From Candidatus Saccharimonadia bacterium (lineage in GTDB: Bacteria; Patescibacteriota; Saccharimonadia; Saccharimonadales; 2-12-FULL-41-12): a DNA stretch of 64,000 nt. Below the pieces are notes generated by a model. It ran no database searches. It was not told the origin of the DNA and saw only the letters and a program-made list of their open reading frames with translations. Of the stretch, positions 5,500 to 56,805 are shown in pieces. How positions within the stretch are numbered: the stretch's first letter is position 1; each line of letters starts with the position of its first letter. Where the stretch lies: the NCBI GenBank assembly GCA_963717365.1, contig OY970327.1, forward strand, positions 459,599 through 523,598, given 5' to 3'. A program made the position numbers and the translations under genes.

Positions 5500-5688
5500 G
5501 TGGCAGGTAAAGCTGTTCTCGCCTTAGTGTCAGGCAAAATGATAGATACAGGCAAATACGGGACAGTTAAGGCATTTCACGATTTATACCCTGGATATTA
5601 TCCTGAATTAGAGATTGTCCAGCAAGCAGAGCTTGAGCTTTACCTAACACTGGAAAATCTTGCGCATCAGCAAAGTAAAGTTGCATAG
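5500..5688 (+). CDS. Hypothetical small protein (62 aa, GTG start)
   Basis: ORF starting 7 nt after the upstream stop, so possibly translationally coupled. Its 3' end overlaps junction motif copy 5679-5708. Confidence 0.35.
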   Translation: MAGKAVLALVSGKMIDTGKYGTVKAFHDLYPGYYPELEIVQQAELELYLTLENLAHQQSKVA

Positions 5689-10549: not shown

Positions 10550-11362
10550 GTGGTAATAACGAATGGCACTACTCAGTACCGCATCGGTAGACTAGTGGCA
10601 GAAGCTGCAGCATTTCGGCTCTACATCTGCAAGGATGTTGCTGCCGATAAGCAGTATCTGCTACAAGTCGCCGCCCAGATCGAGCACAACAGTGGACTCG
10701 ACCGTGCGGCGTTCGTACTAAAGAAGCTCAAGCAGACTTCCGATCTCTATGAGACGGAATACGCAAAGGTTTCAGAGGGACGGATGCTCAACTACGATCG
10801 TCTCTTCCCAGGTTTGGTGGACAGTTTTATCTGCGATGAGCAGGGCAAGCGTCGGGTTAACATCCTGACGTTTAAAGATATCGACTCCATCTCTATGATG
10901 GTGCCGTTGTCTAACCTGATCAACAAGGATCGGCTGCGCATCGATCTGGAAACCAGTGCTTGGATCATGGGACGGCTTCTAAAGCTGCTTGCATTTACGC
11001 ACGGCCAAGGAATCACCGTTGGCATGCTCACTGGTAACAACGTGCTGATCAGTCCGTCGAACCACTTTGTTGTGGTTCTCGACTGGTCGGCGGCACGGAC
11101 GTTCCAGCGGGAAGTTCCGCTCGAAGATCGCAGAGCCGACATCGCACGCGCCGCGCAAGCAGTGTTTGCAGCCATCGGCGGTGATCCCGCGACGCAGGAC
11201 TATCCGTACAGCACAGACGACAACCGTCGGTATGTCGAGCATCTCATGCGCTTGGCGAGCAGGCGGGAAGGCAATGCCGAACGGGCTCATGCCAACTTCT
11301 ACAAGTTGGTCTACGAGCTGTTTGGCAAAGGGTTCCGACCCTTCACTACGTTGCCCCTATAG
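10550..11362 (+). CDS. Protein-kinase-like fold protein, probably atypical or pseudokinase
   Basis: 270 aa with a GTG start about 10 nt after AAAGGA. THGQGITVGMLTGNNVLISP aligns with the HRDLKxxNxLI catalytic loop but lacks the catalytic Asp. VVVLDWSAA matches a DFG-like Mg-binding Asp. GC-rich codon usage. Confidence 0.45.
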   Translation: MVITNGTTQYRIGRLVAEAAAFRLYICKDVAADKQYLLQVAAQIEHNSGLDRAAFVLKKLKQTSDLYETEYAKVSEGRMLNYDRLFPGLVDSFICDEQGKRRVNILTFKDIDSISMMVPLSNLINKDRLRIDLETSAWIMGRLLKLLAFTHGQGITVGMLTGNNVLISPSNHFVVVLDWSAARTFQREVPLEDRRADIARAAQAVFAAIGGDPATQDYPYSTDDNRRYVEHLMRLASRREGNAERAHANFYKLVYELFGKGFRPFTTLPL

Positions 11363-11383
11363 ACACCCTCATGAGGAGAAGTA

Positions 11384-12553
11384 ATGGGATACGATACGTT
11401 TTCAACCACGTCATTCCGCAGGATCCACGATTCTGCGACTCGTGGCGGCACGACCAGTGCCACCCGGGCAGCCGAGGAACGCATCAACCAAGGTCTCGGT
11501 CTCGACCCGTTGGTCGACCCGAAGGGCTTGGCGCACCTCGGTCCGGTTCGCATGTCGTTGCCGCGCTTCGAAAAGCAAGGTGACTACTGGCTCCTGACCA
11601 AGGGTCTGCCGATGGCCGAGGAAACGCTCCTGGACACCACAAGCTCGATGGGCAACAACGTCGACATGGCCTTCGCGGCTTTGCCAAACGCCTACGAGAT
11701 GCTGACATCCGGGGAACAGCCAATCCTTGGCCGGTACGACCCCCAGATCGCTACGGCGATCTTCAACGACGTACAAGACAATATGTACCGGGGCAACATT
11801 CCCGTCCTGGCCCGTAGCCAGTTCGAGATGGCCGACAAGATCGCGCAGCAAATGACGCTGCTGGTTCCCGGTCGCGGTGGGTGCGGTAACGGCAAGGAAG
11901 ATCCCCAGTTCGGGCTCTTCGGCGCCGCCTACCTGACCGCTGCCTCGATCAACAAGTGGGGTCTCAAGTACTACCACTTCACAATCTCCGATGAGCCGAT
12001 TGTCGATTACATCGACCTTCAGTGGCTCAAGACCATCTTCGGAGATGACGTGTTGGACCGAGTCAAGGAAAACGGCTACGACTTCGCAGCCGCCGAACTT
12101 CCCGATACCGCGCAAGCGGTCAGCGACCTGCAGATGCGGGCACATGCCTTCTTCCTGCAGGTTCCGGGATACGGTGCCGAACGACGTGTGACGGATCAGT
12201 GGACTGAGCTTTACGGCGATGACCACACCATCATGCTTCCCGGCAGCACCGAACACGTGCACTACCTGAAGGCCGTCATCATTGGTCTGACCGAAGGAGT
12301 GCTCGACCTCAATTCGGCCGACACGTTTCTGCGCGACCACGGGCTGGACCGACGCACCGCCGATTCAATCGTACGTGCCGTGGCCCACATCCCGCTGGCC
12401 GCCCAGACGCAGGCGCCGAACTTCGACAAGATCCCCAAGGCCGGCGATCTCTTCCAAGAGAAGACCGACCTGTGGCCGATCGATTCGAATGAGGTACCGG
12501 AGCAGTCCCAGAGCCAGCCGGATGCAACCGATGACGAGCTGAACTGGCTCTAG
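11384..12553 (+). CDS. von Willebrand factor A (vWA)-like protein with a MIDAS-like motif
   Basis: 389 aa with SD GAGGAG. LLDTTSSMG is a DxTxS variant of the DxSxS MIDAS motif following a beta-strand. The tail is acidic (DATDDELNWL). Confidence 0.5.
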   Translation: MGYDTFSTTSFRRIHDSATRGGTTSATRAAEERINQGLGLDPLVDPKGLAHLGPVRMSLPRFEKQGDYWLLTKGLPMAEETLLDTTSSMGNNVDMAFAALPNAYEMLTSGEQPILGRYDPQIATAIFNDVQDNMYRGNIPVLARSQFEMADKIAQQMTLLVPGRGGCGNGKEDPQFGLFGAAYLTAASINKWGLKYYHFTISDEPIVDYIDLQWLKTIFGDDVLDRVKENGYDFAAAELPDTAQAVSDLQMRAHAFFLQVPGYGAERRVTDQWTELYGDDHTIMLPGSTEHVHYLKAVIIGLTEGVLDLNSADTFLRDHGLDRRTADSIVRAVAHIPLAAQTQAPNFDKIPKAGDLFQEKTDLWPIDSNEVPEQSQSQPDATDDELNWL

Positions 12554-12595
12554 GTCACACCGTCATCAAACTACAACTGTCCAGATAGGAGACAA

Positions 12596-13981
12596 ATGAC
12601 TCATAAGGTCTACGTCGTCACCGATCTTGGACCAGGTGACGGTGGCAAGGGTGGTGTGGTGCACAAAATCAGTAGCATGATGCGTGCCCACACCATTATC
12701 AAGCGCGGCGGCGCACAGGGAAGCCATGGCGTCCGCACCTCCAGAGGCGAGCAGTTTGCCTTTAGCCAATGGGGGTGCGGTACGTTTGAAGGTATTCCCA
12801 CCTTTCTCTCCGAGCAGATGATCATCAGTCCGGAGGGATTGCTCAACGAAGCCGCCGATCTGCGCTACCTGCACGGCATACACAACGCTTGGGATCTACT
12901 GACCGTAGACGAACGAGCCTTGTGTGCTACACCGTTCCACGGGATAGCTTCTCATCTAAAAGAACTGGCGAGACGCGATAACCCTCGTGGAACGGTTGGC
13001 ACCGGCGTTGGTGAGGCGTACCGCAGCTACCAACAACTGCCGGAACTCGCAATCATGGCCAAAGACCTGAAAGGAGGAGGTCTGCGAGACCGGCTAGCAG
13101 CGATCAGGGACCACATCAGGTCCGACCTTCAACCGGTTATCAACGGCGAGTTTCTTGCCAGCGATCTGGACGCTTACAACAAGGAGGTTGGCCTACTGTA
13201 CGACGACGCGTTTTTGGACTACGTTACCGTACGGTTTGAAGAAGCCGCCAAGCAGGTGAATATCGTCGGTTCCAACTACCTGGGTGATGAAATACTTGCT
13301 CGGGAAGGGGTGGCCGTCGTAGAAACCTCGCATGGCGTTCTAACCGACCGCCTTACTGGCTTTCACCCGCATACTAGTGCTATCCGGACGCTGCCGCGCT
13401 TTACGCATGGCATGCTTTCAGATGCCGGCTATGACGGAGAAGTGGTCGACATTGGAGTAACCAGAGCCTACGCCGTTAGGCATGGAGCTGGTCCGATGCC
13501 AACCGCCAACACTGAGATGACGGAGCGCCTGCTGCCTGGCAGCGCCAAAGGCGCTAACCGTTATCAGGGAGAGATACGAGTTGGTCCTCTGGATCTCCTG
13601 CTGCTTCGATATGCAATCGATGCTTGTGGTGGCCCGGTCTCATTTGATGGCCTTGCCATAACCTGGTTCGACCAAATCCAAGTAAATGGAGTCTGGGAGA
13701 TATGCAACGCGTATTTCAATGCTGACAAGCCCACCTTTTTCACACCTCAGGGTGAGATCAAGATTGATCGCAGCACGGACGTACAGCATCTTGAGTATCA
13801 GCGTGGCCTTGGCCGCCAGCTACTCAGCTGCTCGCCAGAAATCACGGCGCTGCCGGTCAATTCGGATATCAGCCATGATGAGCTATATGCCATTTGTGCT
13901 GACACCATGCAAGCGTTGACCGCAGTACCTGTCCGAATGGTTTCATTTGGACCAACAGAGCTCGACAAGCTCTGCAAGTGA
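12596..13981 (+). CDS. Divergent adenylosuccinate synthetase (PurA/PurZ) family enzyme
   Basis: 461 aa with SD AGGAG. Motif-by-motif match to PurA as I recall it. [11 protein letters not shown] aligns with QWGDEGKGKIV, and GGAQGSHGV with [20 protein letters not shown] aligns with GTTGRGIGPAY, and [20 protein letters not shown] with [35 protein letters not shown] aligns with KAYSTRVGAGPFPT, and SFGPTE with STGPDR. Confidence 0.75.
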   Translation: [461 protein letters not shown]

Positions 13982-14010
13982 CCCGCAAGACAAAAAACAA
14001 GGAGATAACC

Positions 14011-15159
14011 ATGTCCGACGAGACAGATACGACCACCGAAGCCAACGGCTCCGACCCCGTCGTTGACAAGCTCAAGGAATACGGCGCTGCCGACGAGACG
14101 ATCAGCAATATCCAGAACCTGGGTGTCACCACCCTCGAGGATCTGGCCTTGCTGAACGAGACGGATCTGGTGGACGCAGGCGTGAAGACGATTCCGGCGC
14201 GCAAGCTGCTGGTCTCGCTCAAGCCGGCAACACCACCCGTCGACACGGCAGCGCTCGGTGCGGCTGCGTTCGACAGCGTTCTGCCGCTCGTACCCGATGA
14301 CGGCTCGTGGCTGGCAGCCCTCAAGACCGGTGGCGTCTTGAAGGTCGATCAGTCGACTGTCATCTCGGCCATCAGGGCGGCCCTGGCTGACCGTGTGGGT
14401 CTCTTCGAGATTCCGGCCAAGCTGGTCGCCGCCATGGAGCAGTTCGCCGCCAGCAACGACGAGCCGGTGGATCCGTCGTTCTTCACTCTGCGTGAGCAGC
14501 TTACGCAGCGGAAGTACGCCGAGATCTTCGAGGCCATCCCCGGTCTCAACGGCAGCTACGTCACCGACGGCCGCAAGAAGCAGCTGTTCGACCGCATGGA
14601 CAGCAACCTCTGGCCAGCCATCATGGCCTTCAACGACCAGCTGAAGAGCTGGCAGGAGACCTGGATGCAGCAAGGGGCGAACCCCGGCATGCTGTTGGCG
14701 GCAATCGCTTCCAACAGCGGCAGCGGACTGCAGATGCCTCCCGGCATGATGCAGCCGCCCGACACGAGTGGTCTGCGCGACTACGCCGATGCCATCAACG
14801 ATGCCGTGAACCGTGTGTTCGCCGGCACCGGAGTGCAGATCGCGGCCGCGTTGGCCTACGACGCTTCGCAGATCAAGCGGACGCTGGAAGACCCCCGTCT
14901 CCCGTCCATGATCGGCGCGGCAAACCGTGACCAGATGCTCAAGCAGTTGAATGTCACGGTCAGCTCCACCTACCCCAGGTTGGAGCTCAACCTCACCCGG
15001 TTCGTCCTGGCTTGCATGCAGGCCAAGGACCAGCCATCGGGCAATGAGGAGCTGCAGTACTTCGGCATGCTCAACATGCTCGGCTCCCAGATTCCCTGGT
15101 CTGAGCTGGGCTATCACAGCAACCAAGTACACGGCATCACTGGTCGTACGAGGATCTAG
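14011..15159 (+). CDS. Hypothetical protein (382 aa), last gene of the GC-rich cassette
   Basis: ATG 14011 lies 7 nt after AAGGAG (13999-14004), whereas the track start GTG 13978 overlaps the purA-like stop. The N-terminus is acidic, with a small helical region (LGVTTLEDLALLNETDLVDAGVKTIPARKLL) and a Q/P/M-rich linker. No domain recognised. Confidence 0.6.
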   Translation: MSDETDTTTEANGSDPVVDKLKEYGAADETISNIQNLGVTTLEDLALLNETDLVDAGVKTIPARKLLVSLKPATPPVDTAALGAAAFDSVLPLVPDDGSWLAALKTGGVLKVDQSTVISAIRAALADRVGLFEIPAKLVAAMEQFAASNDEPVDPSFFTLREQLTQRKYAEIFEAIPGLNGSYVTDGRKKQLFDRMDSNLWPAIMAFNDQLKSWQETWMQQGANPGMLLAAIASNSGSGLQMPPGMMQPPDTSGLRDYADAINDAVNRVFAGTGVQIAAALAYDASQIKRTLEDPRLPSMIGAANRDQMLKQLNVTVSSTYPRLELNLTRFVLACMQAKDQPSGNEELQYFGMLNMLGSQIPWSELGYHSNQVHGITGRTRI

Positions 15160-15182
15160 TCCTCACCGCGACCAGTCCCAAA

Positions 15183-15217
15183 GGACCGGCGAAACCTCTG
15201 ATAGGTTTCGCCGGTCC
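15183..15217 (+). terminator. GC-rich hairpin terminator without a U-tract
   Basis: GGACCGGCGAAACC (15183-15196) pairs perfectly with GGTTTCGCCGGTCC (15204-15217), giving a 14-bp stem and 7-nt loop, 24 nt after the stop. No T-run follows. Confidence 0.6.
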
Positions 15218-15339
15218 AGCAGGGGCTCTCGATTGATGTTAGTCTTTACCGACTATTTCCAATCTTGAGCCCCTTTTTTCATATTTATTACTTTAGCCAA
15301 CGAGACGTGACCTTGGATGTAGATTTTATTATGGAAGAG

Positions 15340-27067: not shown

Positions 27068-29911
27068 ATGCCTGATATCCATGAAATTCGCATAACGTCG
27101 ACGGAAGAAGTTGATCCGGCCGGACATGCGGTGTCCCAAGAGATTCGTCGCACCTTTAACAGCAATGTCGATGTCCGTACCGCCAAAATCTACCGCATAC
27201 AAGGGGGCACTCCAGAGCAAGCACGGGAGCTGGGCAACAAATTGCTGGCCGATCCGGAAATCGAAACATTTACCGTCAATGAACTTCCGCTTGACTCCGA
27301 TTTTTATACCAGGGAAGTAGCCTATAAGCCCGGGGTGATGAACCCCGCCTCGGGATCTTTCCTCAAAGCTGCCGAGTACCTTGGCATAAAGCCGGAGGCG
27401 GTCGATTCGTCTATCGAATATATTTTACCTAGGACGGTTGACGCGGACTTTGCAGATTTAATTGTAAATCGGTTGTTAATGAATAAAACAGTGCAGCGAA
27501 TAGTAGATACGCCGCCGTCAAGCTTAACCTTTGAAGCTGAACCCGGCCCGGTTACAACTATTCCAATCCGCCAGGCATCCGATAATGAGTTAATGGAATT
27601 ATCAAAAGATAAACTATTTTTGACACTGGATGAAATGCGGGCCGTAAAAGCAAAATTTACTAAACTGAACCGCGAACCGACCGACTGTGAACTGGAAATC
27701 GTCGCCGCGGCTTGGAGCGAACACTGCGGCCACAAAACTTTTAACGCCGGCATTGAACTGCCTGACGGCAGTATAAAAGATCCGTTATTCAAACGCATCA
27801 AAGATACTGCCCGAAAACACTTTGAAAAGGTTGGAGTTTTATCAGCCTTTCATGATAACTCCGGCGTTATTAAATTTTATGACGGCCAGGCAATTTGCGG
27901 CAAGGTAGAAACTCATAACAGCCCATCAGCTATTGAACCGTATGGCGGTGCTATGACCGGCAGCGGCGGCGTTTTCCGTGATATTGTAGGCACCGGCCTG
28001 GGAGCCAAAAATATTATTTCTACCGATATGTTCTGCCTGGCTCCGCCTGATCTTGATGACTCACGGCTGCCCGCAGGCACGCTTCGGCCTGATTATTTGC
28101 AGCGGCGGGTAGTCGACGGTGTCCGTGACTACGGTAATCGGATGGGCATTCCCACTGCTAACGGCTCCTTGCATTTCCATGAAGATTTTCGCGCTAAACC
28201 AACCGTTATAGTAGGCGCTTATGGCATAATGCCCGAGGAATACGCTCAAAAAGGCGAGCCGCTGGTGGGTGACCTAGTTATTGCAATGGGCGGCCGGACC
28301 GGACGGGATGGCATCCACGGCGCTACCTTCTCATCTGGCGAAATGACCGACCGCACGGCGAACGTCAACTCCAGTGCTGTCCAAATTGGCAATGCCATTG
28401 AAGAAAAACGCACCTTCGATGCCATTATGGAAGCCCGTGACACCGGCTGCATCAGAGCCATAACCGACTGTGGTGCGGCTGGTTTTTCATCGGCCATTGG
28501 CGAAATCGGCGAGAACATTGGCGTAACGGTAGACATCAGCAAAGCACCGCTTAAATATCAAGGCCTGGCACCATGGGAGATCTTCCTCAGCGAATCGCAG
28601 GAACGTATGGTACTGGCAGTTCCGCCCGAAAAAGCTGAATCCTTAGCTGCTATCTGCGCCAAATATAATGTTGAACAAGCCGTCTTGGGCGAATTTGACG
28701 GCAGCCATACGCTGACGGTCACCTATGGCGACCAGACGGTGGCGGAGCTAGATTATGAATTCCTTAAGAACGGCTTGCCGGAGCGTGTCATGAAAGCCAA
28801 TTGGCAACCTGAAATAATTGAAGAAGAGCGCCCAACGTGGCCCCATGGATCAGAGGACTGGATTAATCGTCTAAGCGGAGTTTTGTCCCACGGCAACGTT
28901 TGCTCTAAGCAACCAATAGTTCGCCAGTATGACCATGGTGTGCAGGGTGGCAACGTTGTCAGCCCGTTTGGCGGCGTAACCGAAGAAGGACCCAACGACG
29001 CGCTAGTTGTTCGGCCTATGCTTGATAAGCCATACGGAGTTGTTCAGTCGCACGGCATGAATCCAATTTTAAACCGCTATAACCCATACGAGGGCAGCAA
29101 ATGGGCAATCGCCGAGACTATGGCAAATTATGTGGCAGTTGGCGGCAATCCGCGGGAAGCGGCTCTGGTTAATAATTTTATCTGGCCATTTCCCGACGAA
29201 CAGGAAATGGGTTCGCTCGATAAATCTGTCGACGCCATCACCGATATGATGGACGCTTTGGAAATTCCGGTAATCTCAGGTAAAGACAGCCTGTCATCTA
29301 CGTACCGCGGCAAAGACGGTGAAGTAATTAAAATTCCGCCGGTTCTTTGTATGTCAGCTTTTGGACGGATACCGGACGTAGAAAAAACCATGACCGCCGA
29401 AATTAAAAAACCCGGCTCAACACTTGTTTTAGTAGGAAAACAATCAGCTGGCATGGCCGGCTCGGCTTATTATGACGTAGCGGGCGGACAGAGTTCCCAT
29501 GTGCCAGAGATTGATATCGAAAACCTGCCTAAGACCCTTGATGCGGTGCATAAAGCCATCGTCTCCGGTGATGTCTTAGCCTGCCACGACATAAGCGAAG
29601 GCGGACTGGTTTCAGCCGTAACCGAAATGGCTATCGGCGGCAACTGCGGCGCCACACTGGATATTCCATCACACGCCGACGAAGAACACTTTCTCTTTAA
29701 TGAAACAGCTGGTTGTTTTGTGGTAGAAGTAGCAGACGAGGAACAAGCTCAGAAGTTATTTGGCGAAGTCGACTATCAAATTATCGGCAAGACGCATAAC
29801 ATGGCAATTCTTGGCGTTACTAGCGACGCCACAGAAGAAGTTATTTTCTTTGCTAGGGTTGAAAAGCTAAAAAATGATTGGCAACGCCCGACCAAGGAGT
29901 TGTTTGAATGA
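27068..29911 (+). CDS. purL: Phosphoribosylformylglycinamidine synthase, PurS-PurL fusion
   Basis: 947 aa. The N-terminal ~85 aa are PurS-like (IRITSTEEVDPAGHAV...). PurL motifs are WSEHCGHKTFN, VETHNSPSAIEPYGGAMTGSGGVFRD and a duplicated AIRS-type domain. Confidence 0.85.
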   Translation: MPDIHEIRITSTEEVDPAGHAVSQEIRRTFNSNVDVRTAKIYRIQGGTPEQARELGNKLLADPEIETFTVNELPLDSDFYTREVAYKPGVMNPASGSFLKAAEYLGIKPEAVDSSIEYILPRTVDADFADLIVNRLLMNKTVQRIVDTPPSSLTFEAEPGPVTTIPIRQASDNELMELSKDKLFLTLDEMRAVKAKFTKLNREPTDCELEIVAAAWSEHCGHKTFNAGIELPDGSIKDPLFKRIKDTARKHFEKVGVLSAFHDNSGVIKFYDGQAICGKVETHNSPSAIEPYGGAMTGSGGVFRDIVGTGLGAKNIISTDMFCLAPPDLDDSRLPAGTLRPDYLQRRVVDGVRDYGNRMGIPTANGSLHFHEDFRAKPTVIVGAYGIMPEEYAQKGEPLVGDLVIAMGGRTGRDGIHGATFSSGEMTDRTANVNSSAVQIGNAIEEKRTFDAIMEARDTGCIRAITDCGAAGFSSAIGEIGENIGVTVDISKAPLKYQGLAPWEIFLSESQERMVLAVPPEKAESLAAICAKYNVEQAVLGEFDGSHTLTVTYGDQTVAELDYEFLKNGLPERVMKANWQPEIIEEERPTWPHGSEDWINRLSGVLSHGNVCSKQPIVRQYDHGVQGGNVVSPFGGVTEEGPNDALVVRPMLDKPYGVVQSHGMNPILNRYNPYEGSKWAIAETMANYVAVGGNPREAALVNNFIWPFPDEQEMGSLDKSVDAITDMMDALEIPVISGKDSLSSTYRGKDGEVIKIPPVLCMSAFGRIPDVEKTMTAEIKKPGSTLVLVGKQSAGMAGSAYYDVAGGQSSHVPEIDIENLPKTLDAVHKAIVSGDVLACHDISEGGLVSAVTEMAIGGNCGATLDIPSHADEEHFLFNETAGCFVVEVADEEQAQKLFGEVDYQIIGKTHNMAILGVTSDATEEVIFFARVEKLKNDWQRPTKELFE

Positions 29912-30657
29912 GCCGTTCTCCAGAAATCTGTATCCTAAAAACCGACGGTATTAACTGCGAAGAAGAAATGGCTAATGCCTTCACAGTAGCCGGCGGCAGC
30001 CCGGACATCGTCCATATCAATCAACTCCGTTCCGGCGAAAAAAAGCTGGTGAATTATGCGGCTCTGAGCTTACCCGGCGGTTTTTCGTACGGCGACGATA
30101 TTAGATCCGGTGTCGTATTAGGCACCGAGTTAACTGCATATCTAGGGGATGAGTTACACGCGTTTGTAGATGCTAAAAAACCTATTCTTGGTGTCTGCAA
30201 CGGTTTCCAGGTACTGGCCCAGACCGGCTTGCTGCCAAATCGCAGTCTTGGCGAACAAACTATTACTTTGGCGCGCAACGATATTGGCCGGTTCGTCTGC
30301 AAATGGGTTGACCTTGACGTTGAGGACAGTATTTGTAAATTTACTCCGACGAAAGATTTTGAAGAAATTATTTCAATGCAGATTGCACATGGAGAGGGAC
30401 GATTTTCAACGAAAGACTCTCAGTTACTAGAGCTCATCTATGGTAAGCAAATTGTCTTTAGTTATCTTGATAACCCCAATGGTTCGCTTGCTAGTATTGC
30501 CGGAGTTTGCGATAAAACCGGTTTAATCCTCGGTATGATGCCCCATCCCGAGCGTTCAACCGCCGCCTTTCATCCTGACCGTAAACGAACTGACGCCGCT
30601 CGCCGTGCCAGTGCCATCATCTTCAATAACATCGTTAATTATGCCAAGGAATCCTAA
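29908..30657 (+). CDS. purQ: Phosphoribosylformylglycinamidine synthase glutaminase subunit
   Basis: 249 aa with GVCNGFQVL (the catalytic Cys) and MMPHPER. There is a 4-nt overlap with purL. Confidence 0.85.
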   Translation: MSRSPEICILKTDGINCEEEMANAFTVAGGSPDIVHINQLRSGEKKLVNYAALSLPGGFSYGDDIRSGVVLGTELTAYLGDELHAFVDAKKPILGVCNGFQVLAQTGLLPNRSLGEQTITLARNDIGRFVCKWVDLDVEDSICKFTPTKDFEEIISMQIAHGEGRFSTKDSQLLELIYGKQIVFSYLDNPNGSLASIAGVCDKTGLILGMMPHPERSTAAFHPDRKRTDAARRASAIIFNNIVNYAKES

Positions 30658-30661
30658 ATCT

Positions 30662-31813
30662 ATGCAGGAGACACTCAGAAAACCAATCCAAGAAGTAAAT
30701 ATTGAACTGGGCGATGATGTTTCACGAATGCTGTACGAAGCTTCCCAGGCTACCCACCAAAACCGGCCTGGACTACTGGAAGAGGTGCATGCTTCTTTCT
30801 CGGGATTCCGGGGCGTGCCGCTGGGCAAGCTAGTAGATGTTCAAAATCTATATAGCAATATGGGTTTTGACGGCGTTGGTACTAAAGTCGAAATTGCCGA
30901 ACGACTGGGAGATCATTCTGTTGTCGCCTTTGATCTGTTTGCAATGGTCTGTGATGATGCGGTAGCTAACGGTGCCGAGCCTCTAACAATTGGTTCAATT
31001 TTAGATGTCCGACAACTGGAAGACACTGCTTATACGCGTAAAACACTCCGACAATTGGCAGCTGGTTATATAGCGGCGGCCAAAGCTGCTGGCGTGATAG
31101 TGGTCAATGGGGAAGTAGCTGAACTTGGCGACCGGGTGGGCGGACATGGCCATTTTAACTATAACTGGGGAGCGGCGGTCTGGTGGGCAGCCCATAAATC
31201 CCGCGCGTTAACCGGCGGAGAGATTAAACCTGGGCATTCGCTGGTAGGCTTGGCAGAACATGGGTTCCGGTCTAATGGCATAACCGATGTCCGTAAAACC
31301 TTACTTACAGAGTATGGCCCCAATTGGCAAAATGAAAGGGTAAAAGGGCTCGGGCGACTCACGCTTGGAAAATTAGTCCAGAATCCTTCAACGATTTACA
31401 CTCCGTTCATGAATCACTTAACCGGCGGTTATGATATTACTCGTGAGCCGGCCGCAAATATTACCGGAGCAGCCCATATTACCGGCGGTGGGCAGCCCAG
31501 CAAACTTGGAAGAATGCTCAAGCCGTCCGGACTGGGAGCACGTATAATCGCGCCATTGGATCCTCCGGCTATAATGAGACATTTACAACAAGTAGGGAAG
31601 TACAATGATTATCAGGCCTATAATAAATGGCACATGGGGCCTGGATTCGTTATTGTAACCACCGAGCCCGAAAAAGTCCTGGCCGCTGCTCATGAATTTG
31701 GCATTGATGCCCAGGAAATAGGGTTTATTACGGAAGAGCCCGGTATATCTATTAAAAACCGGGGCTGGGAACAAAAAGAAGAGTATCTTTATTTCGCTAA
31801 AGCTGTAAAATAG
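30662..31813 (+). CDS. purM: Phosphoribosylformylglycinamidine cyclo-ligase (AIR synthetase)
   Basis: DGVGTKVEIAE and overall AIRS N and C domains. I chose ATG 30662 after AAGGA (30646-30650). Alternative in-frame starts are at 30641 and 30605. Confidence 0.8.
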   Translation: MQETLRKPIQEVNIELGDDVSRMLYEASQATHQNRPGLLEEVHASFSGFRGVPLGKLVDVQNLYSNMGFDGVGTKVEIAERLGDHSVVAFDLFAMVCDDAVANGAEPLTIGSILDVRQLEDTAYTRKTLRQLAAGYIAAAKAAGVIVVNGEVAELGDRVGGHGHFNYNWGAAVWWAAHKSRALTGGEIKPGHSLVGLAEHGFRSNGITDVRKTLLTEYGPNWQNERVKGLGRLTLGKLVQNPSTIYTPFMNHLTGGYDITREPAANITGAAHITGGGQPSKLGRMLKPSGLGARIIAPLDPPAIMRHLQQVGKYNDYQAYNKWHMGPGFVIVTTEPEKVLAAAHEFGIDAQEIGFITEEPGISIKNRGWEQKEEYLYFAKAVK

Positions 31814-40702: not shown

Positions 40703-41377
40703 ATGGACATTCCTGAAGAACTTTTAACTATCTGCAAACAGCATCCTGTCCATAAACGGGAGGCTGGTGAACCTATTTTGTATCAAGGGGAAATACCTCG
40801 TCATGCCTATATTCTCACTAGTGGCATTGTAAAAGTCTACGATATAGGTGGCGCCGGTGACGAAAAAATTATTAATTTCCTCTCGGTCGGCGACCTTATG
40901 CCCCCAGCCTGGGTATTTAAAAAGGCCCCGGTAAGTCTTTATTATTATGATGCGTTTACACCATGCAATTTTTATCGCATCGGTCGCGATACGCTTCTTG
41001 AAGCAATACGTACAAAGCCAGCCATCACACATTTTATGTTTGAACATTACGCCACTTCCTTTGTCGGCTCGCTGTTAGAAATAAACGCCCTGGAGCAATC
41101 AAAAGGTAATGAAAAAATTATCCATATGCTGCAGTATCTTCTAATGCGTTTTCCAAGCCCGCGTAATCATTCAGAGGAGTGGCAGCGCATTGACCTGCGC
41201 ATAACTCACCAAGACTTAGCCAATATGACCGGCTTAACCCGTGAAACCACTTCCACAGAGCTAAATAAGTTGCGTCGCAAAGGTATCGTCGAGTACGCCA
41301 ACCAGCATTACTCCTTAAATATCCCACTCTTACGCTCACTGCTTAGCTCTGAAGAATTCCTCAGCTTCAAGTATTAG
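40703..41377 (+). CDS. Crp/Fnr-family transcriptional regulator
   Basis: A cNMP-binding-like beta-barrel (GEIPRHAYILTSGIVKVY) plus a C-terminal HTH (THQDLANMTGLTRETTSTELNKLRRKGIV). The start is ambiguous between ATG 40703 and TTG 40682. Confidence 0.7.
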   Translation: MDIPEELLTICKQHPVHKREAGEPILYQGEIPRHAYILTSGIVKVYDIGGAGDEKIINFLSVGDLMPPAWVFKKAPVSLYYYDAFTPCNFYRIGRDTLLEAIRTKPAITHFMFEHYATSFVGSLLEINALEQSKGNEKIIHMLQYLLMRFPSPRNHSEEWQRIDLRITHQDLANMTGLTRETTSTELNKLRRKGIVEYANQHYSLNIPLLRSLLSSEEFLSFKY

Positions 41378-41380
41378 CCT

Positions 41381-41467
41381 TTAGATATTCATACGAATAG
41401 ACACGGAAATTGCCTAACGAGCAATTTCCTGCGGAATATAACCGAGTCTATACGTATGAATATCTAA
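41381..41467 (+). repeat. Structured palindromic element E1 (outer 22-bp stem plus inner hairpin with loop CTAACGA)
   Basis: Outer arms 41381-41402 and 41446-41467 have 1 mismatch. The inner hairpin is GGAAATTGC (41405-41413), loop CTAACGA, GCAATTTCC (41421-41429). The element begins 4 nt after the crp-like stop. Confidence 0.6.
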
Positions 41468-41510
41468 AGCCAGGATTTTAATGATATTTCACTTAATCCG
41501 CAGAGTACAG

Positions 41511-42128
41511 CTATAAACCTGGACCGTATTTTGCTATAAAATCGGCAATCTCTTCGGCCTTTTCGGGAAAAAGCGCTGAATACCAGGTTGTTCTACCTGA
41601 GTATCTTGTTATAAAATCCAGCGAAAGTCCGATACCCATGTTCATAAAATACGCTGCTACGTCAACCTCGTGATCGAGCTCACCGGTTAGCGATGTATCA
41701 CTAGCATGTTGTGCTGCGTGCAGCCACTCTTCTGCAGCGCCCATAGCTATTTCTTTCTGAAGTTGTTCAACTAATTCAGGATCAAACCTGTCCCTATCTA
41801 TATTTTCATTATAAGGGCCTTGTATATGATATCCTGTAATTTTTAAATTGTGACTTGGTCTCTGATACCAATTTCTACTAACTACAGAACGAGTTTCTTT
41901 GACTAGATCATCTTTTGAGAGTAACGTGCGAATACCGATAACAAGGTTAAGACCCGGTCTTTCTCTTTGGGGGACGAAGTCACTATCTAGGTTATATTGA
42001 GCAAAGTGATTAAATGCTTCTTCGTTCTGCCCAGATTGAAGTAGCGCAATACCTGAGGCAATATGATCCAGCAGTAGGACCTGTCTCTCAGTTTCAGTGA
42101 TAGAGACATAAGCTTCAAAACCAGACAT
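41511..42128 (-). CDS. Hypothetical protein (205 aa)
   Basis: ORF only. No domain recognised. Confidence 0.5.
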   Translation of the reverse strand: MSGFEAYVSITETERQVLLLDHIASGIALLQSGQNEEAFNHFAQYNLDSDFVPQRERPGLNLVIGIRTLLSKDDLVKETRSVVSRNWYQRPSHNLKITGYHIQGPYNENIDRDRFDPELVEQLQKEIAMGAAEEWLHAAQHASDTSLTGELDHEVDVAAYFMNMGIGLSLDFITRYSGRTTWYSALFPEKAEEIADFIAKYGPGL

Positions 42129-42219
42129 AATAATACTTTACAATAATATGTTATTAATTTCAAATCTAGTAGAATTCGTATAAACCTTGCGTGGTGATTA
42201 AGTCAAGTTCTAGGATAGA

Positions 42220-42310
42220 AGCATACCGTTGCAAAGTAATGACTTTGCTCTCTGCAAGAGGAACTTGCTCGTTAGGCAAGTTTCGGGTCATTACTTTGCA
42301 ACGGTATGCT
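42220..42310 (-). repeat. Structured palindromic element E2 (outer 24-bp perfect stem plus inner hairpin, loop CTAACGA on the minus strand)
   Basis: AGCATACCGTTGCAAAGTAATGAC (42220-42243) is the exact reverse complement of 42287-42310. The inner hairpin is GAACTTGC / TCGTTAG / GCAAGTTTC (42261-42284). The element lies directly 3' of the response-regulator stop at 42312. Confidence 0.65.
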
Positions 42311-42311
42311 G

Positions 42312-42695
42312 TTATTCGTCGATAAGGCTGTTTCGAACAATCCGCACTAGTTCTTTAGGAGAAGCGTAAGCTTTTAGCACATAGTGGGTAGCGCCGAGGT
42401 CAAATGAGCTGTCAATGTCTTTCTGAACGTCATAGTTGCTGAAGACAATAATTTTATAATCTGGATGGTCCTTTTTCTGCAATTCGGCAAGGAAGGTAAG
42501 TCCGTCCATTTTTGGCATTCTCAGATCAAGCAAAATTAAGTCAGGGGTTTTATCTTTAAGGATTTCCAGTGCCTCTTCGCCGTTGAAGGCTTTGTAAACC
42601 TTGTAGCCCTCATGCTTAAGGACAGTCTCATAGGCTTCATTTAATAAGGTTTCGTCTTCGACGATCAAGATCTGAGCTTTTTTGGATGTAGTCAT
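42312..42695 (-). CDS. Single-domain response regulator (CheY-like receiver)
   Basis: 127 aa with ILIVEDE, DLILLDLRMPKMDG and a conserved Lys region. Confidence 0.85.
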   Translation of the reverse strand: MTTSKKAQILIVEDETLLNEAYETVLKHEGYKVYKAFNGEEALEILKDKTPDLILLDLRMPKMDGLTFLAELQKKDHPDYKIIVFSNYDVQKDIDSSFDLGATHYVLKAYASPKELVRIVRNSLIDE

Positions 42696-42758: not shown

Positions 42759-44573
42759 TTATGGACTGTTGTTGTTAGTATGGTCTGTAAGATTGTTTGC
42801 GGTGTAATTAGAATCTTGCGGGAGGATGATTGTGAACGTCGAACCAACCCCAACTTCACTTATAAACTCTATTCTACCGCCGTGAAGTTCAATCAACACT
42901 TTATCGATATATAGCCCAATACCACTTCCTCCGACTTCAAGCGACCTATCATTATCAAGTCTTGAGAATTTTTTAAAGAGCTTATCATAATCTTCAGGCT
43001 CAATTCCGACACCTTGATCGATTATCGCTATTATGACTTCGTTATTATTAGTCAGCGAGGTTTTAACGGTTATTTGGGTTTTAGGATGACTGTACTTACT
43101 AGCATTCGATATTACGTTTTCAATAACCATTCGAAGACAGGACTCATCAGCGTTTACTAACAACGCTTCCTCCGGGCGATCAATAACTATAGATTGTTCA
43201 TTTTCTTCAAGAGTATCAGACAAATCGAGCACAATATCATCCAGTAATATATTGATGTCAAAAAGCTGACGATTAACACTCAGTCTGCCGGCATCAGCTT
43301 TAGCAACATACAAGATCTGATTAATGGTATCTATTTGGCGCTCATTACTAGCGTATGCCTTTTGAATAGCAGGCAATTGTTTTTTGCTGATCTTTCCAGT
43401 GTAACCTTCGAGGATCATTCCTAAATATTGCTTAACTGCTGTTGCCGGTGTACGCAATTGGTGTGATGCTAAGGAAAGCAGGTCGTCCTTTGCTTGCTGG
43501 GTTTCATTTTGCTTGCTATAAACAATCGCACGAGCACGGGTCAACATAACTAAAAATAAAAATCCAGCGATGGCAAAGCTGATGGTCGTACCGCCGATAA
43601 TAATCATATTGGCCCGCTGAACATCACTTCGTGCCGAATCCATCGGTCCAGCCAAACGAAATGACCAAGTCTGATTAAAAACATTGGCGGTAAATGCTGT
43701 GGTTGTCTGATGCTGCTCAAAGTCTTTATAATTTGGCGACTCATAAAGCAGGGGGTCATTTTCTGTATTAATACCATCAAAAATCTGAATAGCTGAATAG
43801 GAATTAAATTTTGAGGTGTCGATGGCATGGCCAAAAAAATCGTTCGATCCATAGGCTGCAAAGACAAAGCCCTGAAGATTGGCACGCCTTTCTTCAACTG
43901 TCGTAGGTTTTGTATCTTTTGTATATAATGGCTGATACATAGTAAAGCTAGATTGACCTGGAATAGTATATTCGGGTAACTGTGCAAGCTTGTCAGAAAG
44001 TCCAGCTTCTCCAGAGTCCCTTGTTTTTATAGCTAAATCAAGCCGTTGTGGATCGGTGAAAATATCAAAGCCAAGCAGCTTATTTGTTTCATCATCCATT
44101 GGCTCCACATAGGTAACGGACGCATACTCCGTGCGTACACCATTGGGCTTAATAGAGAAGTCTGACAAACCTTCTTGGCGTACATTAGCTGTGTAAACAT
44201 CGGCCGATTGGCCAGGAAGATATTGTATAAATCCAAGACGAGAGACACCCGGATAAGTCTCCCCTAGGTCATACTGTTGAATATAACGACGCCAGTCCTC
44301 ACGAGTAACATGGTCTGAAGCGCTAAACAATCCACTGGCACCGCGTAATATTTGTTCATAAATAACCAAGCGGTTAGTAATATCCATCTCAATTGAACGA
44401 ATCTGCTCATTCAGCCGAGCTACCTCTTGAGTATCGATACGTTGTCGGTCGATATGCCAAGATAACAATGTGATAATCATGCCGAGGATAAATACAAAGG
44501 CTGTGGCCAGCACATAACTTTTAATTCCAGGTATGATTCGTATATACCGCTTATATAATGCCGTTATATTCAT
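42759..44573 (-). CDS. Sensor histidine kinase with an extracytoplasmic CHASE-like domain
   Basis: 604 aa with two TM segments flanking a ~280-aa domain (SDHVTREDWRRYIQQYDLGETYPGVSRLGFIQYLP, which is CHASE-like). The H-box is SHQLRTP and the G-box is GGSGIGLY. Confidence 0.75.
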   Translation of the reverse strand: MNITALYKRYIRIIPGIKSYVLATAFVFILGMIITLLSWHIDRQRIDTQEVARLNEQIRSIEMDITNRLVIYEQILRGASGLFSASDHVTREDWRRYIQQYDLGETYPGVSRLGFIQYLPGQSADVYTANVRQEGLSDFSIKPNGVRTEYASVTYVEPMDDETNKLLGFDIFTDPQRLDLAIKTRDSGEAGLSDKLAQLPEYTIPGQSSFTMYQPLYTKDTKPTTVEERRANLQGFVFAAYGSNDFFGHAIDTSKFNSYSAIQIFDGINTENDPLLYESPNYKDFEQHQTTTAFTANVFNQTWSFRLAGPMDSARSDVQRANMIIIGGTTISFAIAGFLFLVMLTRARAIVYSKQNETQQAKDDLLSLASHQLRTPATAVKQYLGMILEGYTGKISKKQLPAIQKAYASNERQIDTINQILYVAKADAGRLSVNRQLFDINILLDDIVLDLSDTLEENEQSIVIDRPEEALLVNADESCLRMVIENVISNASKYSHPKTQITVKTSLTNNNEVIIAIIDQGVGIEPEDYDKLFKKFSRLDNDRSLEVGGSGIGLYIDKVLIELHGGRIEFISEVGVGSTFTIILPQDSNYTANNLTDHTNNNSP

Positions 44574-49288: not shown

Positions 49289-49290
49289 AT

Positions 49291-49343
49291 GAGTACTATA
49301 CCTCGGTTTCATTAAATTTTAATGAAGTTGAGGTATAGTACTC
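49291..49343. repeat. 53-bp near-perfect palindrome, family copy A (apex TTCATTAAA/TTTAATGAA)
   Basis: GAGTACTATACCTC (49291-49304) pairs with GAGGTATAGTACTC (49330-49343), with inner TTCATTAAA / TTTAATGAA. It lies between the ABC permease stop and the rlmH start. Confidence 0.65.
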
Positions 49344-49384
49344 AGCTTGCACGTACCCCCAAGCAAATAAATTAGAATAGCGCA

Positions 49385-51630: not shown

Positions 51631-51683
51631 AAGTACTATACTTCAACTTCATTAAAATTTAATGAAAAACAGATATAGTAATA
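51631..51683. repeat. Palindrome family copy B (degenerate)
   Basis: AAGTACTATACTTCAACTTCATTAAAATTTAATGAAAAACAGATATAGTAATA matches the reverse complement of 49291-49343 at most positions by eye. Confidence 0.6.
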
Positions 51684-51728: not shown

Positions 51729-51818
51729 GGAGGGGTCGCCTAGTGGCCTATGGCGCCGCCTTGGAAAGGCGGTTTGGGAGCAATCTCATCGAGGGTTCGA
51801 ATCCCTCTCCCTCCGCCA
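51729..51818 (+). tRNA. tRNA-Ser (anticodon GGA), CCA encoded
   Basis: Hand-folded cloverleaf. The acceptor is GGAGGGG/TCCCTCC, the anticodon stem-loop is CCGCC-TTGGAAA-GGCGG, the variable arm is long, the T-arm is GAGGG-TTCGAAT-CCCTC, and the discriminator G is followed by CCA. Confidence 0.85.
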
Positions 51819-51990: not shown

Positions 51991-52142
51991 TTGACAATAT
52001 ATGTTATTGTTTTATGTATTATGATTTCAACCATCATGAAGCAGTATCAACTACTCCTCGGCCTTAATGGGCTGTGCTTCATCATGGTTGAAGCCTAGAC
52101 ACTATTTGTCTCCAGTACAGCCCCACTAAATAGGCTTCAACC
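51991..52142 (+). promoter_or_regulatory. Promoter plus structured leader with mutually exclusive pairings
   Basis: TTGACA at 51991-51996. An 18-bp stem forms between 52026-52043 and 52075-52092 (1 mismatch), and a second stem pairs GAAGCCTA (52090-52097) with TAGGCTTC (52131-52138). GGTTGAAGCC (52087-52096) is also perfectly complementary to GGCTTCAACC (52133-52142). Confidence 0.45.
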
Positions 52143-56776: not shown

Positions 56777-56805
56777 AACCGCCAAGATGGCGGTTTTTTA
56801 TTTTT
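56777..56805 (+). terminator. Rho-independent terminator
   Basis: AACCGCC (56777-56783) pairs with GGCGGTT (56789-56795) around a 5-nt loop, followed by TTTTTATTTTTTT. Confidence 0.7.

What the first reader, a model, noticed from the sequence alone, without database searches (positions are those of the whole stretch)
41381..42310. Two ~90-nt structured elements with identical architecture, a conserved CTAACGA hairpin loop and completely different (covarying) outer stems
E1 (41381-41467, plus strand) and E2 (42220-42310, read on the minus strand) have the same layout. Each has an outer stem of 22-24 bp, then 2 nt, then an inner hairpin, then 16-17 nt, then the closing arm. The inner hairpin is GGAAATTGC-CTAACGA-GCAATTTCC in E1 and GAAACTTGC-CTAACGA-GCAAGTTC in E2. 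The outer stems share no sequence, yet both pair almost perfectly, which is what is expected of a selected RNA or ssDNA structure rather than a simple repeat. Each element begins within a few nucleotides of the stop codon of a regulator gene (Crp-like and CheY-like) in the sense orientation. They may be an unusual terminator class, 3'-UTR-derived sRNAs or recombination sites.
Basis: seen in the sequence. Interest (0 to 1): 0.55.

Follow-up and report, generated by a model that had tools for sequence, protein, structure and literature searches.

The report
T-shaped palindromic elements bounding two regulator genes
Two ~90-base DNA palindromes that fold into the same T shape sit right after the stop codons of two regulator genes in a Saccharimonadales (CPR) bacterium; they belong to an undescribed conserved family found at the same spot in related genomes, and its function is still unproven.

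Summary
E1 (41380-41468, +) and E2 (42220-42310, -) are the two longest inverted repeats and among the most stable folds in the window. Each has a 23-24 bp outer stem, invariant GAC/GTC at its inner end, and exactly 43 nt between the arms.

Four more copies occur in three related Saccharimonadales genomes, all in the gap between the convergent CheY-like and Crp-like genes. All three helices covary. The core is 70-88% identical between positional orthologues, while four-fold degenerate sites are saturated for the more distant relatives.

The arms are almost purely Watson-Crick (311 of 314 pairs across 12 elements). One copy has a flipped core. Both fit DNA-level template switching, so covariation alone does not prove a selected RNA.

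The gap is a gene-turnover slot: it is empty, holds one element, or holds elements flanking unrelated cargo genes. No Rfam family, phage, plasmid, recombinase or transposase links were found.

Best guess (0.4): a cis-acting 3'-boundary hairpin with a conserved recognition cap. Rivals are a selfish palindromic repeat, a cassette recombination site, and a processed sRNA.

The parts
41380..41402 (+). E1 5' arm of the outer stem (23 nt)
   Evidence: Pairs with 41446-41468 with one A.A mismatch. Ends in the invariant GAC.
41403..41445 (+). E1 43-nt core: junction AC, H1 (41405-41413 / loop 41414-41420 CTAACGA / 41421-41429), TG, H2 (41432-41434 / loop 41435-41441 / 41442-41444), A
   Evidence: Aligns without gaps to five other copies. 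H2 is of the 'Crp type'.
41446..41468 (+). E1 3' arm of the outer stem
   Evidence: Starts with the invariant GTC.
42287..42310 (-). E2 5' arm of the outer stem (24 nt, read on the minus strand)
   Evidence: Perfect complement of 42220-42243.
42244..42286 (-). E2 43-nt core: CC, H1 (42284-42276 / loop 42275-42269 CTAACGA / 42268-42260), TC, H2 (42257-42254 / loop 42253-42249 / 42248-42245), A
   Evidence: H2 is of the 'CheY type', shared with L011A and L058.
42220..42243 (-). E2 3' arm of the outer stem. Its outer edge is where homology to the closest relative ends.
40703..41377 (+). Crp/Fnr-like regulator gene, whose stop codon abuts E1
   Evidence: Pfam cNMP_binding + HTH_Crp_2. Orthologues are 82-96% identical.
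42312..42695 (-). Stand-alone CheY-like receiver gene, whose stop codon abuts E2
   Evidence: Pfam Response_reg. Orthologues are 90-99% identical.
42759..44573 (-). CHASE-domain histidine kinase, upstream partner of the CheY-like gene. The HK-CheY / Crp convergent module is conserved across Saccharimonadales.
41511..42128 (-). Cargo gene ORF205 in the variable slot between E1 and E2. It is an all-alpha protein of unknown function.
   Evidence: No Pfam, NCBIfam, PADLOC or PHROG hit. Only 5 distant homologues, in unrelated contexts without such elements. AlphaFold model has pLDDT 75.8 and no fold match. Replaced by other genes in relatives.
42135..42163 (-). Promoter-like site (TTGAAA-17-TAAAGT) for ORF205, lying inside the variable segment just beyond E2
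   Evidence: Consensus match only.

Best explanation
E1 and E2 belong to a small, lineage-restricted family of ~90-110-bp palindromic elements that fold into a three-way junction (T shape). They mark the 3' boundaries of the CheY-like and Crp-like regulator genes in a conserved HK-CheY / Crp convergent module of Saccharimonadales.

Most likely mechanism: a cis-acting 3'-boundary element.
- Transcribed as the last ~90 nt of the regulator mRNA, it folds into an extremely stable hairpin.
- The hairpin insulates the gene from its neighbour. The neighbour is either a convergent gene or the promoter of the next gene.
- It also defines or protects the 3' end, either by blocking 3' exonucleases or by RNase III-type cleavage of the 23-34-bp perfect stem.
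- The conserved 43-nt cap (H1, common to both types; H2, specific to each gene) is the recognition surface for a trans-acting factor.
- The long arms carry little sequence information beyond their inner bases. They are kept perfectly complementary by replication template switching, which also explains the one flipped copy.

Shown: the structure, its conservation and covariation, purifying selection on the core, the position at stop codons, and the presence/absence pattern.

Inferred: that the RNA is the active form, that it ends or stabilises transcripts, and that a factor binds the cap.
For: Position:
- All six copies lie where a transcript boundary is expected. E1, L010 and L011A lie between convergent genes. 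E2, L058 and L011B lie between a stop codon and the next gene's promoter.
- They start 0-3 nt from, or overlap, the stop codon.
- Five of six are sense to the abutting gene.
- In another genome (L022) the same gap holds a canonical bidirectional intrinsic terminator, so a terminator is what the site calls for.

Stability and structure:
- Fold energies are -43 to -61 kcal/mol with z about -10.
- Watson-Crick-only stems are what a hairpin that must fold on both strands, i.e. a bidirectional boundary, would need.
- Unpaired positions on the sense strand are 44% A, as in structured RNAs.

Selection:
- Core identity between positional orthologues is 70-88%. Four-fold degenerate sites of the flanking genes are 24-40% identical in L010/L011 and 38-50% in L058/L009.
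- H2 stays tied to its gene (Crp type or CheY type) across genomes. This argues for stable residents with a local role.

Generality:
- Elements of the same architecture but with unrelated cores occupy the same CheY/Crp gap in distant Saccharimonadales (L031, L033, L043, L047, and an imperfect one in L014). In all, 10 of 15 long-arm elements found in 667 kb lie in this gap.
- Template switching as the source of perfect arms and spacer inversion: PMC8604942, PMC8794818.
Against: - There is no T/U tract after either element on either strand. The genome does use ordinary short hairpin + T-tract terminators (56777-56795, 39841-39816, 54503-54487). This is therefore not an intrinsic terminator, and a factor-dependent or processing mechanism has to be assumed.
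- A plain boundary hairpin needs no conserved branched cap.
- One copy (L011B) is antisense to both neighbouring genes.
- Two of the three arm mismatches and the single H1 mismatch are non-pairing on the sense strand (A.A in E1, A.C in L010 and in E2 H1).
- Close relatives do without it. L057 has a 9-bp gap, L059 has overlapping genes, and L058 lacks E1.
- No expression data were available.
- All copies come from loci fetched because they carry this gene module, and only about 5% of the source genome was visible. Locus specificity could therefore be an ascertainment effect.
Confidence: 0.4

Rival explanations
1. It is a selfish, non-autonomous palindromic DNA repeat, like a MITE, REP or REPIN. 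The element persists and occasionally spreads at the DNA level. Gene 3' ends, especially convergent junctions, are simply the places where insertion is tolerated. The conserved core is the site used by a transposase or nuclease encoded elsewhere. The arms are kept perfect by template switching.
For: - Presence/absence differs among close relatives: none in L057 and L059, one in L010 and L058, two in L011 and the window.
- Other families share the architecture. One (L023, two copies in 21.7 kb) is dispersed, with one copy between divergent ORFs. Its arms are 65% identical and every difference is compensated.
- Core flips occur in two families (L011B, L047).
- The arms are Watson-Crick only.
- The size, and the location next to variable foreign-looking genes, are typical of such repeats.
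Against: - No target-site duplication is visible.
- The arms, which would be the terminal inverted repeats, are not conserved between copies.
- No further copy was found in the 64-kb window with filters off, or in about 616 kb of related DNA.
- No transposase, RAYT or HUH gene is among about 55 window ORFs.
- The two subtypes have stayed linked to their own gene since before these genomes split. Their cores are conserved far above neutral expectation, which an inactive selfish copy would not show.
Confidence: 0.25
2. It is a structure-specific recombination site that bounds a gene-cassette slot. It would work like an integron attC site or the pdif/IMEX sites used by Xer recombinases. H1 (9-bp inverted repeats around a 7-bp asymmetric spacer) or the base of the folded stem would be the crossover site, and genes would be swapped in and out between the elements.
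For: - The CheY/Crp gap holds unrelated cargo in each genome: ORF205 in the window, an unrelated 248-aa ORF in the closest relative L058, DUF1653 in L011, and nothing in L010.
- Window and L058 are alignable up to exactly the outer edge of E2's arm and up to the Crp stop codon, and not in between.
- Structure is conserved while arm sequence is not, as in attC.
- H1 has the geometry of a tyrosine-recombinase core site.
- The spacer is identical in the two copies of one genome: CTAACGA twice in the window, CTACCGA twice in L011. Both window copies carry the derived A.
Against: - No recombinase was found in the window.
- The arms lack the attC R''/R' boxes, unpaired central spacer and extrahelical bases.
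- A crossover inside H1 would produce elements with non-complementary arms. All six have matching arms.
- H1 half-sites covary instead of being conserved.
- There is only one cargo gene per locus, and it has its own promoter.
- An element exists without cargo (L010), and cargo exists with only one element (L058).
- Homologues of ORF205 elsewhere have no such elements.
- GC3 skew gives no sign of a replication terminus, so a dif site is not supported.
Confidence: 0.15
3. It is a small RNA cut out of the 3' UTR. RNase III-type cleavage in the long perfect stem would release a ~50-70-nt Y-shaped RNA. The H1 loop (CUAMCGA) or H2 loop would then act in trans, on an RNA or a protein.
For: - A perfect stem of 23 bp or more is an RNase III-type substrate (established knowledge).
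- Loops and junctions are conserved and A-rich on the sense strand.
- Five of six copies are in the sense orientation.
- The H1 loop is identical in both copies of a genome, as expected if it co-evolves with one partner.
Against: - No complementary 7-mer sits at a conserved place in the loci.
- The L010 loop is entirely different (AAAATTA).
- There are no G.U pairs.
- One copy is flipped.
- No expression data were available.
Confidence: 0.1
4. It is a chance resemblance between two ordinary terminators.
For: Both lie at gene 3' ends.
Against: - Six copies have an identical 43-nt spacing, invariant GAC/GTC and a conserved core in four genomes.
- Covariance-model scores are 84-95 bits for the family members. 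The best hit that is not a family member (or its reverse strand) scores 14.3 bits.
- There is no T tract.
Confidence: 0.01

Closest known systems
REP / BIME / REPIN palindromic elements of proteobacteria
   Same: Extragenic palindromes placed just after stop codons and between convergent genes. They form stable hairpins that can protect upstream mRNA. They vary in presence between strains.
   Different: REPs are short imperfect palindromes with a conserved GTAG head, occur in tens to hundreds of copies per genome, and are tied to RAYT transposases. Here the arms are long, perfect and unique to each copy. The conserved part is a branched 43-nt cap. Only two copies are seen in 64 kb, and no RAYT was found.
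Intrinsic (Rho-independent) and bidirectional terminators
   Same: A hairpin immediately downstream of a gene, shared by convergent genes, with Watson-Crick stems able to fold on both strands. L022 has a canonical one at the same site.
   Different: There is no U tract. The stem is 23-34 bp rather than 5-12. The loop is a conserved three-way junction. The flanks have the opposite polarity (5'-TTT...AAA-3') in the Crp-type copies.
Integron attC sites (and CALIN clusters)
   Same: Structure is conserved while sequence is variable. The elements sit at the boundary of exchangeable genes. Homology between relatives ends at the edge of the hairpin.
   Different: attC has conserved R''/R' and L''/L' boxes at the stem base, an unpaired central spacer and extrahelical bases, and a variable tip. 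Here the base is variable, the stem is perfect and the tip is conserved. There is no integrase and no array.
Xer sites: dif, IMEX attachment sites, pdif modules of Acinetobacter plasmids
   Same: H1 is two short inverted arms around a 7-bp asymmetric spacer. Sites flank a discrete cargo gene in inverted (window) or direct (L011) orientation.
   Different: dif arms are 11 bp and conserved in sequence, whereas H1 arms are 9 bp and covary. dif is single-copy at the terminus, and no terminus signal was found. dif has no long outer palindrome or second hairpin.
Parvovirus (AAV) T-shaped inverted terminal repeats
   Same: A long palindromic stem capped by two small internal hairpins. The cap occurs in both orientations ('flip' and 'flop'), and the arms are kept identical by copying.
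   Different: ITRs are the ends of a linear ssDNA replicon and are nicked by a HUH Rep protein. These elements are internal to a bacterial chromosome with no Rep. The likeness is in shape and dynamics only.
Inverted repeats homogenised by replication template switching (quasipalindrome correction)
   Same: It explains perfect arms without G.T pairs, compensated multi-base differences between orthologues, and inversion of the spacer (PMC8604942, PMC8794818).
   Different: It is a mutational process, not a function. It does not explain why the 43-nt core is conserved or why the elements sit at this locus.

Membership tests
Intrinsic terminator | Hairpin directly downstream of a gene's stop codon | tested here: met
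Intrinsic terminator | Run of T (U) immediately 3' of the hairpin | tested here: not met
   The flanks of E1 and E2 on both strands, and of all other copies, lack it. The terminator scan finds true examples elsewhere in the window but not these.
Intrinsic terminator | Short G+C-rich stem with a 3-8 nt loop | tested here: not met
   The stems are 23-34 bp and A+T-rich, and the 43-nt 'loop' is branched.
REP / REPIN | Many near-identical copies per genome | tested here: inconclusive
   Two copies in 64 kb, and none elsewhere in about 616 kb of related loci. Only about 5% of the source genome was visible.
REP / REPIN | Conserved GTAG-type head and an associated RAYT gene | tested here: not met
   No conserved head outside the arms. 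No Y1/HUH transposase among the window ORFs. The rest of the genome was not visible.
MITE | Terminal inverted repeats conserved between copies | tested here: not met
   The E1 and E2 arms share only GAC/GTC. Orthologous arms diverge with compensation.
MITE | Direct target-site duplication | tested here: not met
   Flanks of all six copies were inspected.
Integron attC | R'' (RYYYAAC) and R' (GTTRRRY) boxes paired at the stem base | tested here: not met
   The stem bases are AG...CT or TTT...AAA. GCCTAAC occurs only at the H1 stem-loop border, which is the wrong place.
Integron attC | Unpaired central spacer and extrahelical bases in the stem | tested here: not met
   The stems have 0-1 mismatch and no bulges.
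Integron attC | Integron integrase or an array of cassettes nearby | tested here: not met
   No integrase in the window. At most one cargo gene lies between two elements.
Xer/dif-type site | Two recombinase-binding arms around a 6-8 bp central region | tested here: inconclusive
   H1 is 9+7+9, but its arms covary rather than keep a binding sequence.
Xer/dif-type site | Single copy at the replication terminus | tested here: not met
   There are two copies. The bulk GC skew follows gene strand, and GC3 skew shows no switch.
Any Rfam family | Covariance-model match | tested here: not met
   Nothing at gathering score. Only weak generic miRNA-precursor hairpin hits at E>0.002. No tRNA or tmRNA.
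RNase III substrate (works-like) | About 20 bp or more of uninterrupted double-stranded RNA | tested here: met
   Stems of 23-34 bp with 0-1 mismatch. Cleavage itself is not testable here.
Parvovirus-type T-shaped ITR (works-like) | Long stem capped by two small hairpins, found in flip and flop orientations | tested here: met
   L011B is flipped.
Parvovirus-type T-shaped ITR (works-like) | Terminal position on a linear replicon with a HUH Rep nickase | tested here: not met
   The elements are internal to a 1.19-Mb chromosome contig. No Rep was found, and there are no phage or plasmid matches.

The most novel reading that the evidence does not exclude
The elements are folded-DNA recombination sites of a so far undescribed cassette-exchange system in CPR bacteria. 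A recombinase encoded elsewhere would recognise the conserved T-shaped cap. It would cut at the base of the perfect stem, so the stem stays self-complementary, and genes would be swapped in and out of the CheY/Crp slot. This would be functionally parallel to integron attC sites but with the conserved and variable parts reversed.
Probability: 0.12. Interest if true: 0.85.

Novelty: new variant of a known kind. Interest (0 to 1): 0.55.

Why it matters
Candidate Phyla Radiation bacteria have almost no described cis-regulatory or repeat elements.

This family is a clean case of a conserved structured element. It is tied to one signalling module (CHASE kinase, CheY-like receiver, Crp-like regulator), and it flanks a spot where genes are replaced even between close relatives.

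If it is a transcript-boundary device, it shows a non-canonical way of ending or processing mRNAs in these reduced genomes. If it is a recombination site, it would be a new route of gene exchange.

It is also a textbook warning. Perfect 'covariation' in long stems can come from DNA template switching rather than from selection on an RNA.

Tried and rejected
Searches for further copies or known families:
- Exact-pattern scan of 185,579 reference genomes with AANTTGCCTAACGAGCAANTT gave 5 hits, all unrelated hairpins at the chance level. The source lineage is not in that collection.
- Viral-contig scans gave one chance hit in a coding region and otherwise nothing. The queries were the family core, the family-C core and both arm sequences (to test a 'guide/protospacer' idea).
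- BLAST of E2 against phages and plasmids gave nothing.
- Rfam at gathering score and at a loose E-value, and ARAGORN, gave no family.
- The other long hairpin in the window (52026-52092) scores 14 bits against the family model, so it is not a member.

Ideas rejected:
- Element linked to the cargo gene: ORF205 homologues in three other contexts have no such elements. The cargo proteins have no family, defence, phage or fold match.
- Conserved small ORF: a gene caller called a 41-aa ORF inside E2 in the public Logan contig that carries this locus. In E1 the same frame is preceded by TAG and has no start codon, and in L058 it ends after about 20 codons. It is not conserved.
- Stop-codon read-through or recoding signal: the CheY frame stops again after 6 codons.
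- Promoter inside the core: there is no conserved -35/-10 across the two H2 types.
- Crp-type operator: the H1 half-sites covary and their spacing is wrong.
- Replication terminus or dif: the bulk GC-skew maximum near 36-46 kb disappears when third codon positions are analysed by gene strand.
- Trans target of the H1 loop: no complementary 7-mer at a conserved place.
- Hammerhead, twister or other ribozyme: the junction strands are only 1-2 nt, and there is no Rfam signal.
Full report
**1. The observation**

The sequence at 41380-41468 (E1, + strand) and 42220-42310 (E2, read on the - strand) is as described.
- They are the two longest inverted repeats in the 64 kb.
- RNA folds have z = -9.4 and -10.4, with 0 of 200 shuffles as good. 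DNA folds give the same shape on both strands.
- E2 is the single most stable 110-nt window in the whole sequence.
- Both have exactly 43 nt between the arms. The innermost three pairs of the arms (GAC/GTC) are identical.
- Each element is therefore a three-way junction: an outer stem of 23-24 bp, H1 (9 bp with a 7-nt loop CTAACGA) and H2.
- E1 starts 2-3 nt after the stop of a Crp/Fnr-like gene. E2 starts 1 nt after the stop of a stand-alone CheY-like receiver that follows a CHASE histidine kinase.
- Between the two elements lies one gene, ORF205, on the CheY strand, with its own promoter-like site.

**2. Source and relatives**

The window comes from a 1.19-Mb contig of a Candidatus Saccharimonadales (CPR/Patescibacteria) bacterium. 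The reference-genome collection does not hold the lineage: a pattern scan gave only chance hits. Orthologous loci were reached through the kinase and Crp proteins. The CheY/Crp gap differs from genome to genome.

| Locus | HK identity to window | State of the CheY/Crp gap |
|---|---|---|
| L059 | 62% | Genes overlap by 4 nt, no element |
| L057 | 59% | 9-bp gap, no element |
| L010 | 66% | One element filling the 101-bp gap from stop codon to stop codon |
| L011 | 63% | Two elements flanking a DUF1653 gene |
| L058+L009 (closest relative) | 85% (Crp 96%) | An E2-type element, then an unrelated 248-aa ORF that runs up to the Crp stop; no E1 |
| Window | - | E2, ORF205, E1 |

**3. One family**

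- All six copies align without a single gap. There are 43 nt between the invariant GAC and GTC, and C17, T43 and A58 are invariant.
- On the six-sequence alignment, 98.1% of cells pair and 18 of 27 pairs show changes on both sides. No shuffle out of 500 and no slid register comes close.
- A covariance model scores the six copies at 84-95 bits. The best hit that is not one of the six or its reverse strand scores 14.3 bits. The search covered the window with filters off and about 616 kb of related DNA.
- No Rfam family, tRNA, phage, plasmid or viral-contig match exists.

**4. Selection**

- Four-fold degenerate sites of Crp, CheY and the kinase are 24-40% identical between the window and L010/L011, which is saturated. 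They are 38-50% identical to L058/L009.
- The cores of positional orthologues are 70-88% identical. Between the window and L058 the inner 16 bp of the arms are 88% identical.
- The core, and the inner part of the arms, are therefore under purifying selection.
- The H2 region sorts by position. The Crp type is found in E1, L010 and L011B. The CheY type is found in E2, L011A and L058. The two types split before these genomes did and have stayed with their genes.
- The H1 region does not sort this way. Loop position 4 is A in both window copies and C in both L011 copies and in L058. That means either a parallel change or a conversion.

**5. What the 'covariation' means**

- Across 12 elements of this architecture the arms hold 311 Watson-Crick pairs, 1 G.T pair and 2 other pairs.
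- The few mismatches do not favour one strand.
- Between the window and L058, six arm substitutions, including transversions, are all matched on the other arm.
- L011B has its core flipped relative to Crp.
- Replication template switching between inverted-repeat arms is known to homogenise arms and invert spacers (PMC8604942) and to create and maintain hairpins (PMC8794818).
- The perfect arms and the flip are thus explained by a DNA-level process. They are not evidence for an RNA.
- The conserved core and the persistence of long palindromes, which are normally unstable, still call for a function.

**6. A wider class**

A scan of all held Saccharimonadales DNA (667 kb) for long near-perfect inverted repeats found 15 distinct elements.
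- Ten lie in the CheY/Crp gap. They are the six above plus L031, L043 and L047 (core 72-79 nt, GCAGCCGG-hairpin-CCGCGCG, one of them flipped) and L033. L014 has an imperfect relative.
- A third family has two copies in L023, elsewhere in that genome. Their arms are 65% identical and every difference is compensated.
- In 20 loci where the gap could be measured it ranges from overlapping genes to 2.2 kb. In L022 it holds a canonical bidirectional intrinsic terminator.
- Caveat: every locus was fetched because it carries this module.

**7. A gene-turnover slot**

- Homology between the window and L058 stops at the Crp stop codon on one side and at the outer edge of E2's arm on the other. The 750-830 bp between are unrelated.
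- The cargo proteins (ORF205, ORF248, DUF1653) have no informative family, defence, phage or structural match.
- ORF205 homologues elsewhere are not accompanied by such elements.
- None of about 55 ORFs in the window is a recombinase, transposase or HUH enzyme.

**8. Interpretation**

Position is the strongest functional clue. All six copies sit where a transcript should end or be insulated, five of six are sense to the abutting gene, and a normal terminator occupies the site in L022. They are not intrinsic terminators, however. They have no T tract, while the genome uses ordinary hairpin + T terminators elsewhere.

- I commit, at 0.4, to a cis-acting 3'-boundary hairpin whose conserved cap is a recognition module. 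The RNA-level steps are inferred.
- A selfish palindromic repeat (0.25) fits the presence/absence pattern, the dispersed sister family and the DNA-level signatures. It does not fit the unique arms, the missing target duplications, the stable gene-specific subtypes or the conserved cores.
- A cassette recombination site (0.15) fits the slot, the homology break at the stem base, the 9-7-9 geometry of H1 and the identical spacers within a genome. It fails every attC and dif membership feature tested and lacks a recombinase.
- A processed sRNA (0.1) remains possible.
- Chance is excluded.

**9. Verdict**

This is a real, undescribed, conserved structured element family in a CPR lineage. It has an unusual combination of a conserved T-shaped cap and free, perfectly matched arms. 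It sits at the ends of two regulator genes and at the edges of a gene-replacement hotspot. Its function is unresolved. Interest is moderate to good.

Noticed in passing
L031 2137-2258, L043 8165-8291, L047 1603-1716 (flipped), L033 2099-2215, L014 ~5503-5612: Distant Saccharimonadales carry palindromic elements of the same architecture in the same CheY/Crp gap: perfect unique arms of 21-33 bp plus a conserved branched core. Their core is unrelated (GCAGCCGG - long hairpin - CCGCGCG). There is no Rfam match.
   Followed up: partly
L023 6162-6255 and 19654-19749: A third family has a 42-44-nt core (CCACGTTCC...CTGCACTGGGCRGTCACGA) and two copies in 21.7 kb. One lies between divergent ORFs and the other 17 nt after a gene. 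The arms are 65% identical and every difference is compensated. It looks like a dispersed repeat.
   Followed up: partly
window 10550-15240: A high-GC island (53-62% against about 42% for the window) holds four co-directional ORFs. Three have no Pfam match and one is a divergent adenylosuccinate-synthetase-like protein (12596-13981). The island ends in a strong G+C-rich hairpin at about 15183-15220. It is probably foreign DNA.
   Followed up: partly
window 49290-49344 and 51634-51680: Two near-perfect palindromes share the motif TACTATAC..TTCATTAAATTTAATGAA..TATAGTA. They flank the ABC/MacB-type operon, and promoter-like TATAGT boxes face both ways. They may be a shared operator or divergent promoter.
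   Followed up: no
window 52026-52092: Another long hairpin (18-bp arms, 31-nt spacer) lies between a tRNA gene (51729-51815) and the next ORF. It is not a member of the E1/E2 family (14 bits).
   Followed up: partly
window 42166-42291 (-): A 41-aa ORF lies inside E2. A public gene caller called it as a gene in the Logan contig of this locus. The frame is not conserved in the other copies, so it is probably spurious.
   Followed up: yes
window 41511-42128 (-): ORF205 belongs to a very rare protein family: 5 homologues among 5.8 billion clusters, at 33-43% identity. It is predicted to be all-alpha, with a conserved AAEEWLH...DFITRY motif and no fold match.
   Followed up: yes
L058 7763-8509 (-): In the closest relative the slot holds an unrelated, GC-richer, cysteine-rich 248-aa ORF. 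Its stop codon overlaps the Crp stop by 2 nt (the shared CTAG).
   Followed up: partly
window 27068-31813: Purine de novo synthesis genes are present: a fused PurS/PurL-type FGAM synthase, a PurQ-like amidotransferase and a PurM-like protein. From general knowledge this is unusual for Saccharibacteria, which mostly lack nucleotide biosynthesis.
   Followed up: no
L022 5044-5074: Here the CheY/Crp gap is a textbook bidirectional intrinsic terminator (CCAAAAAGCTCCCTGACCGGGAGCTTTTCTT). It is a useful contrast to E1/E2.
   Followed up: yes
window E1/E2 loops; L011 A/B loops: The H1 loop is identical in the two copies of a genome (CTAACGA in the window, CTACCGA in L011), although the H1 stems differ. 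Both window copies carry the derived A. This is unexplained; it could be a short conversion tract or co-evolution with a partner.
   Followed up: partly
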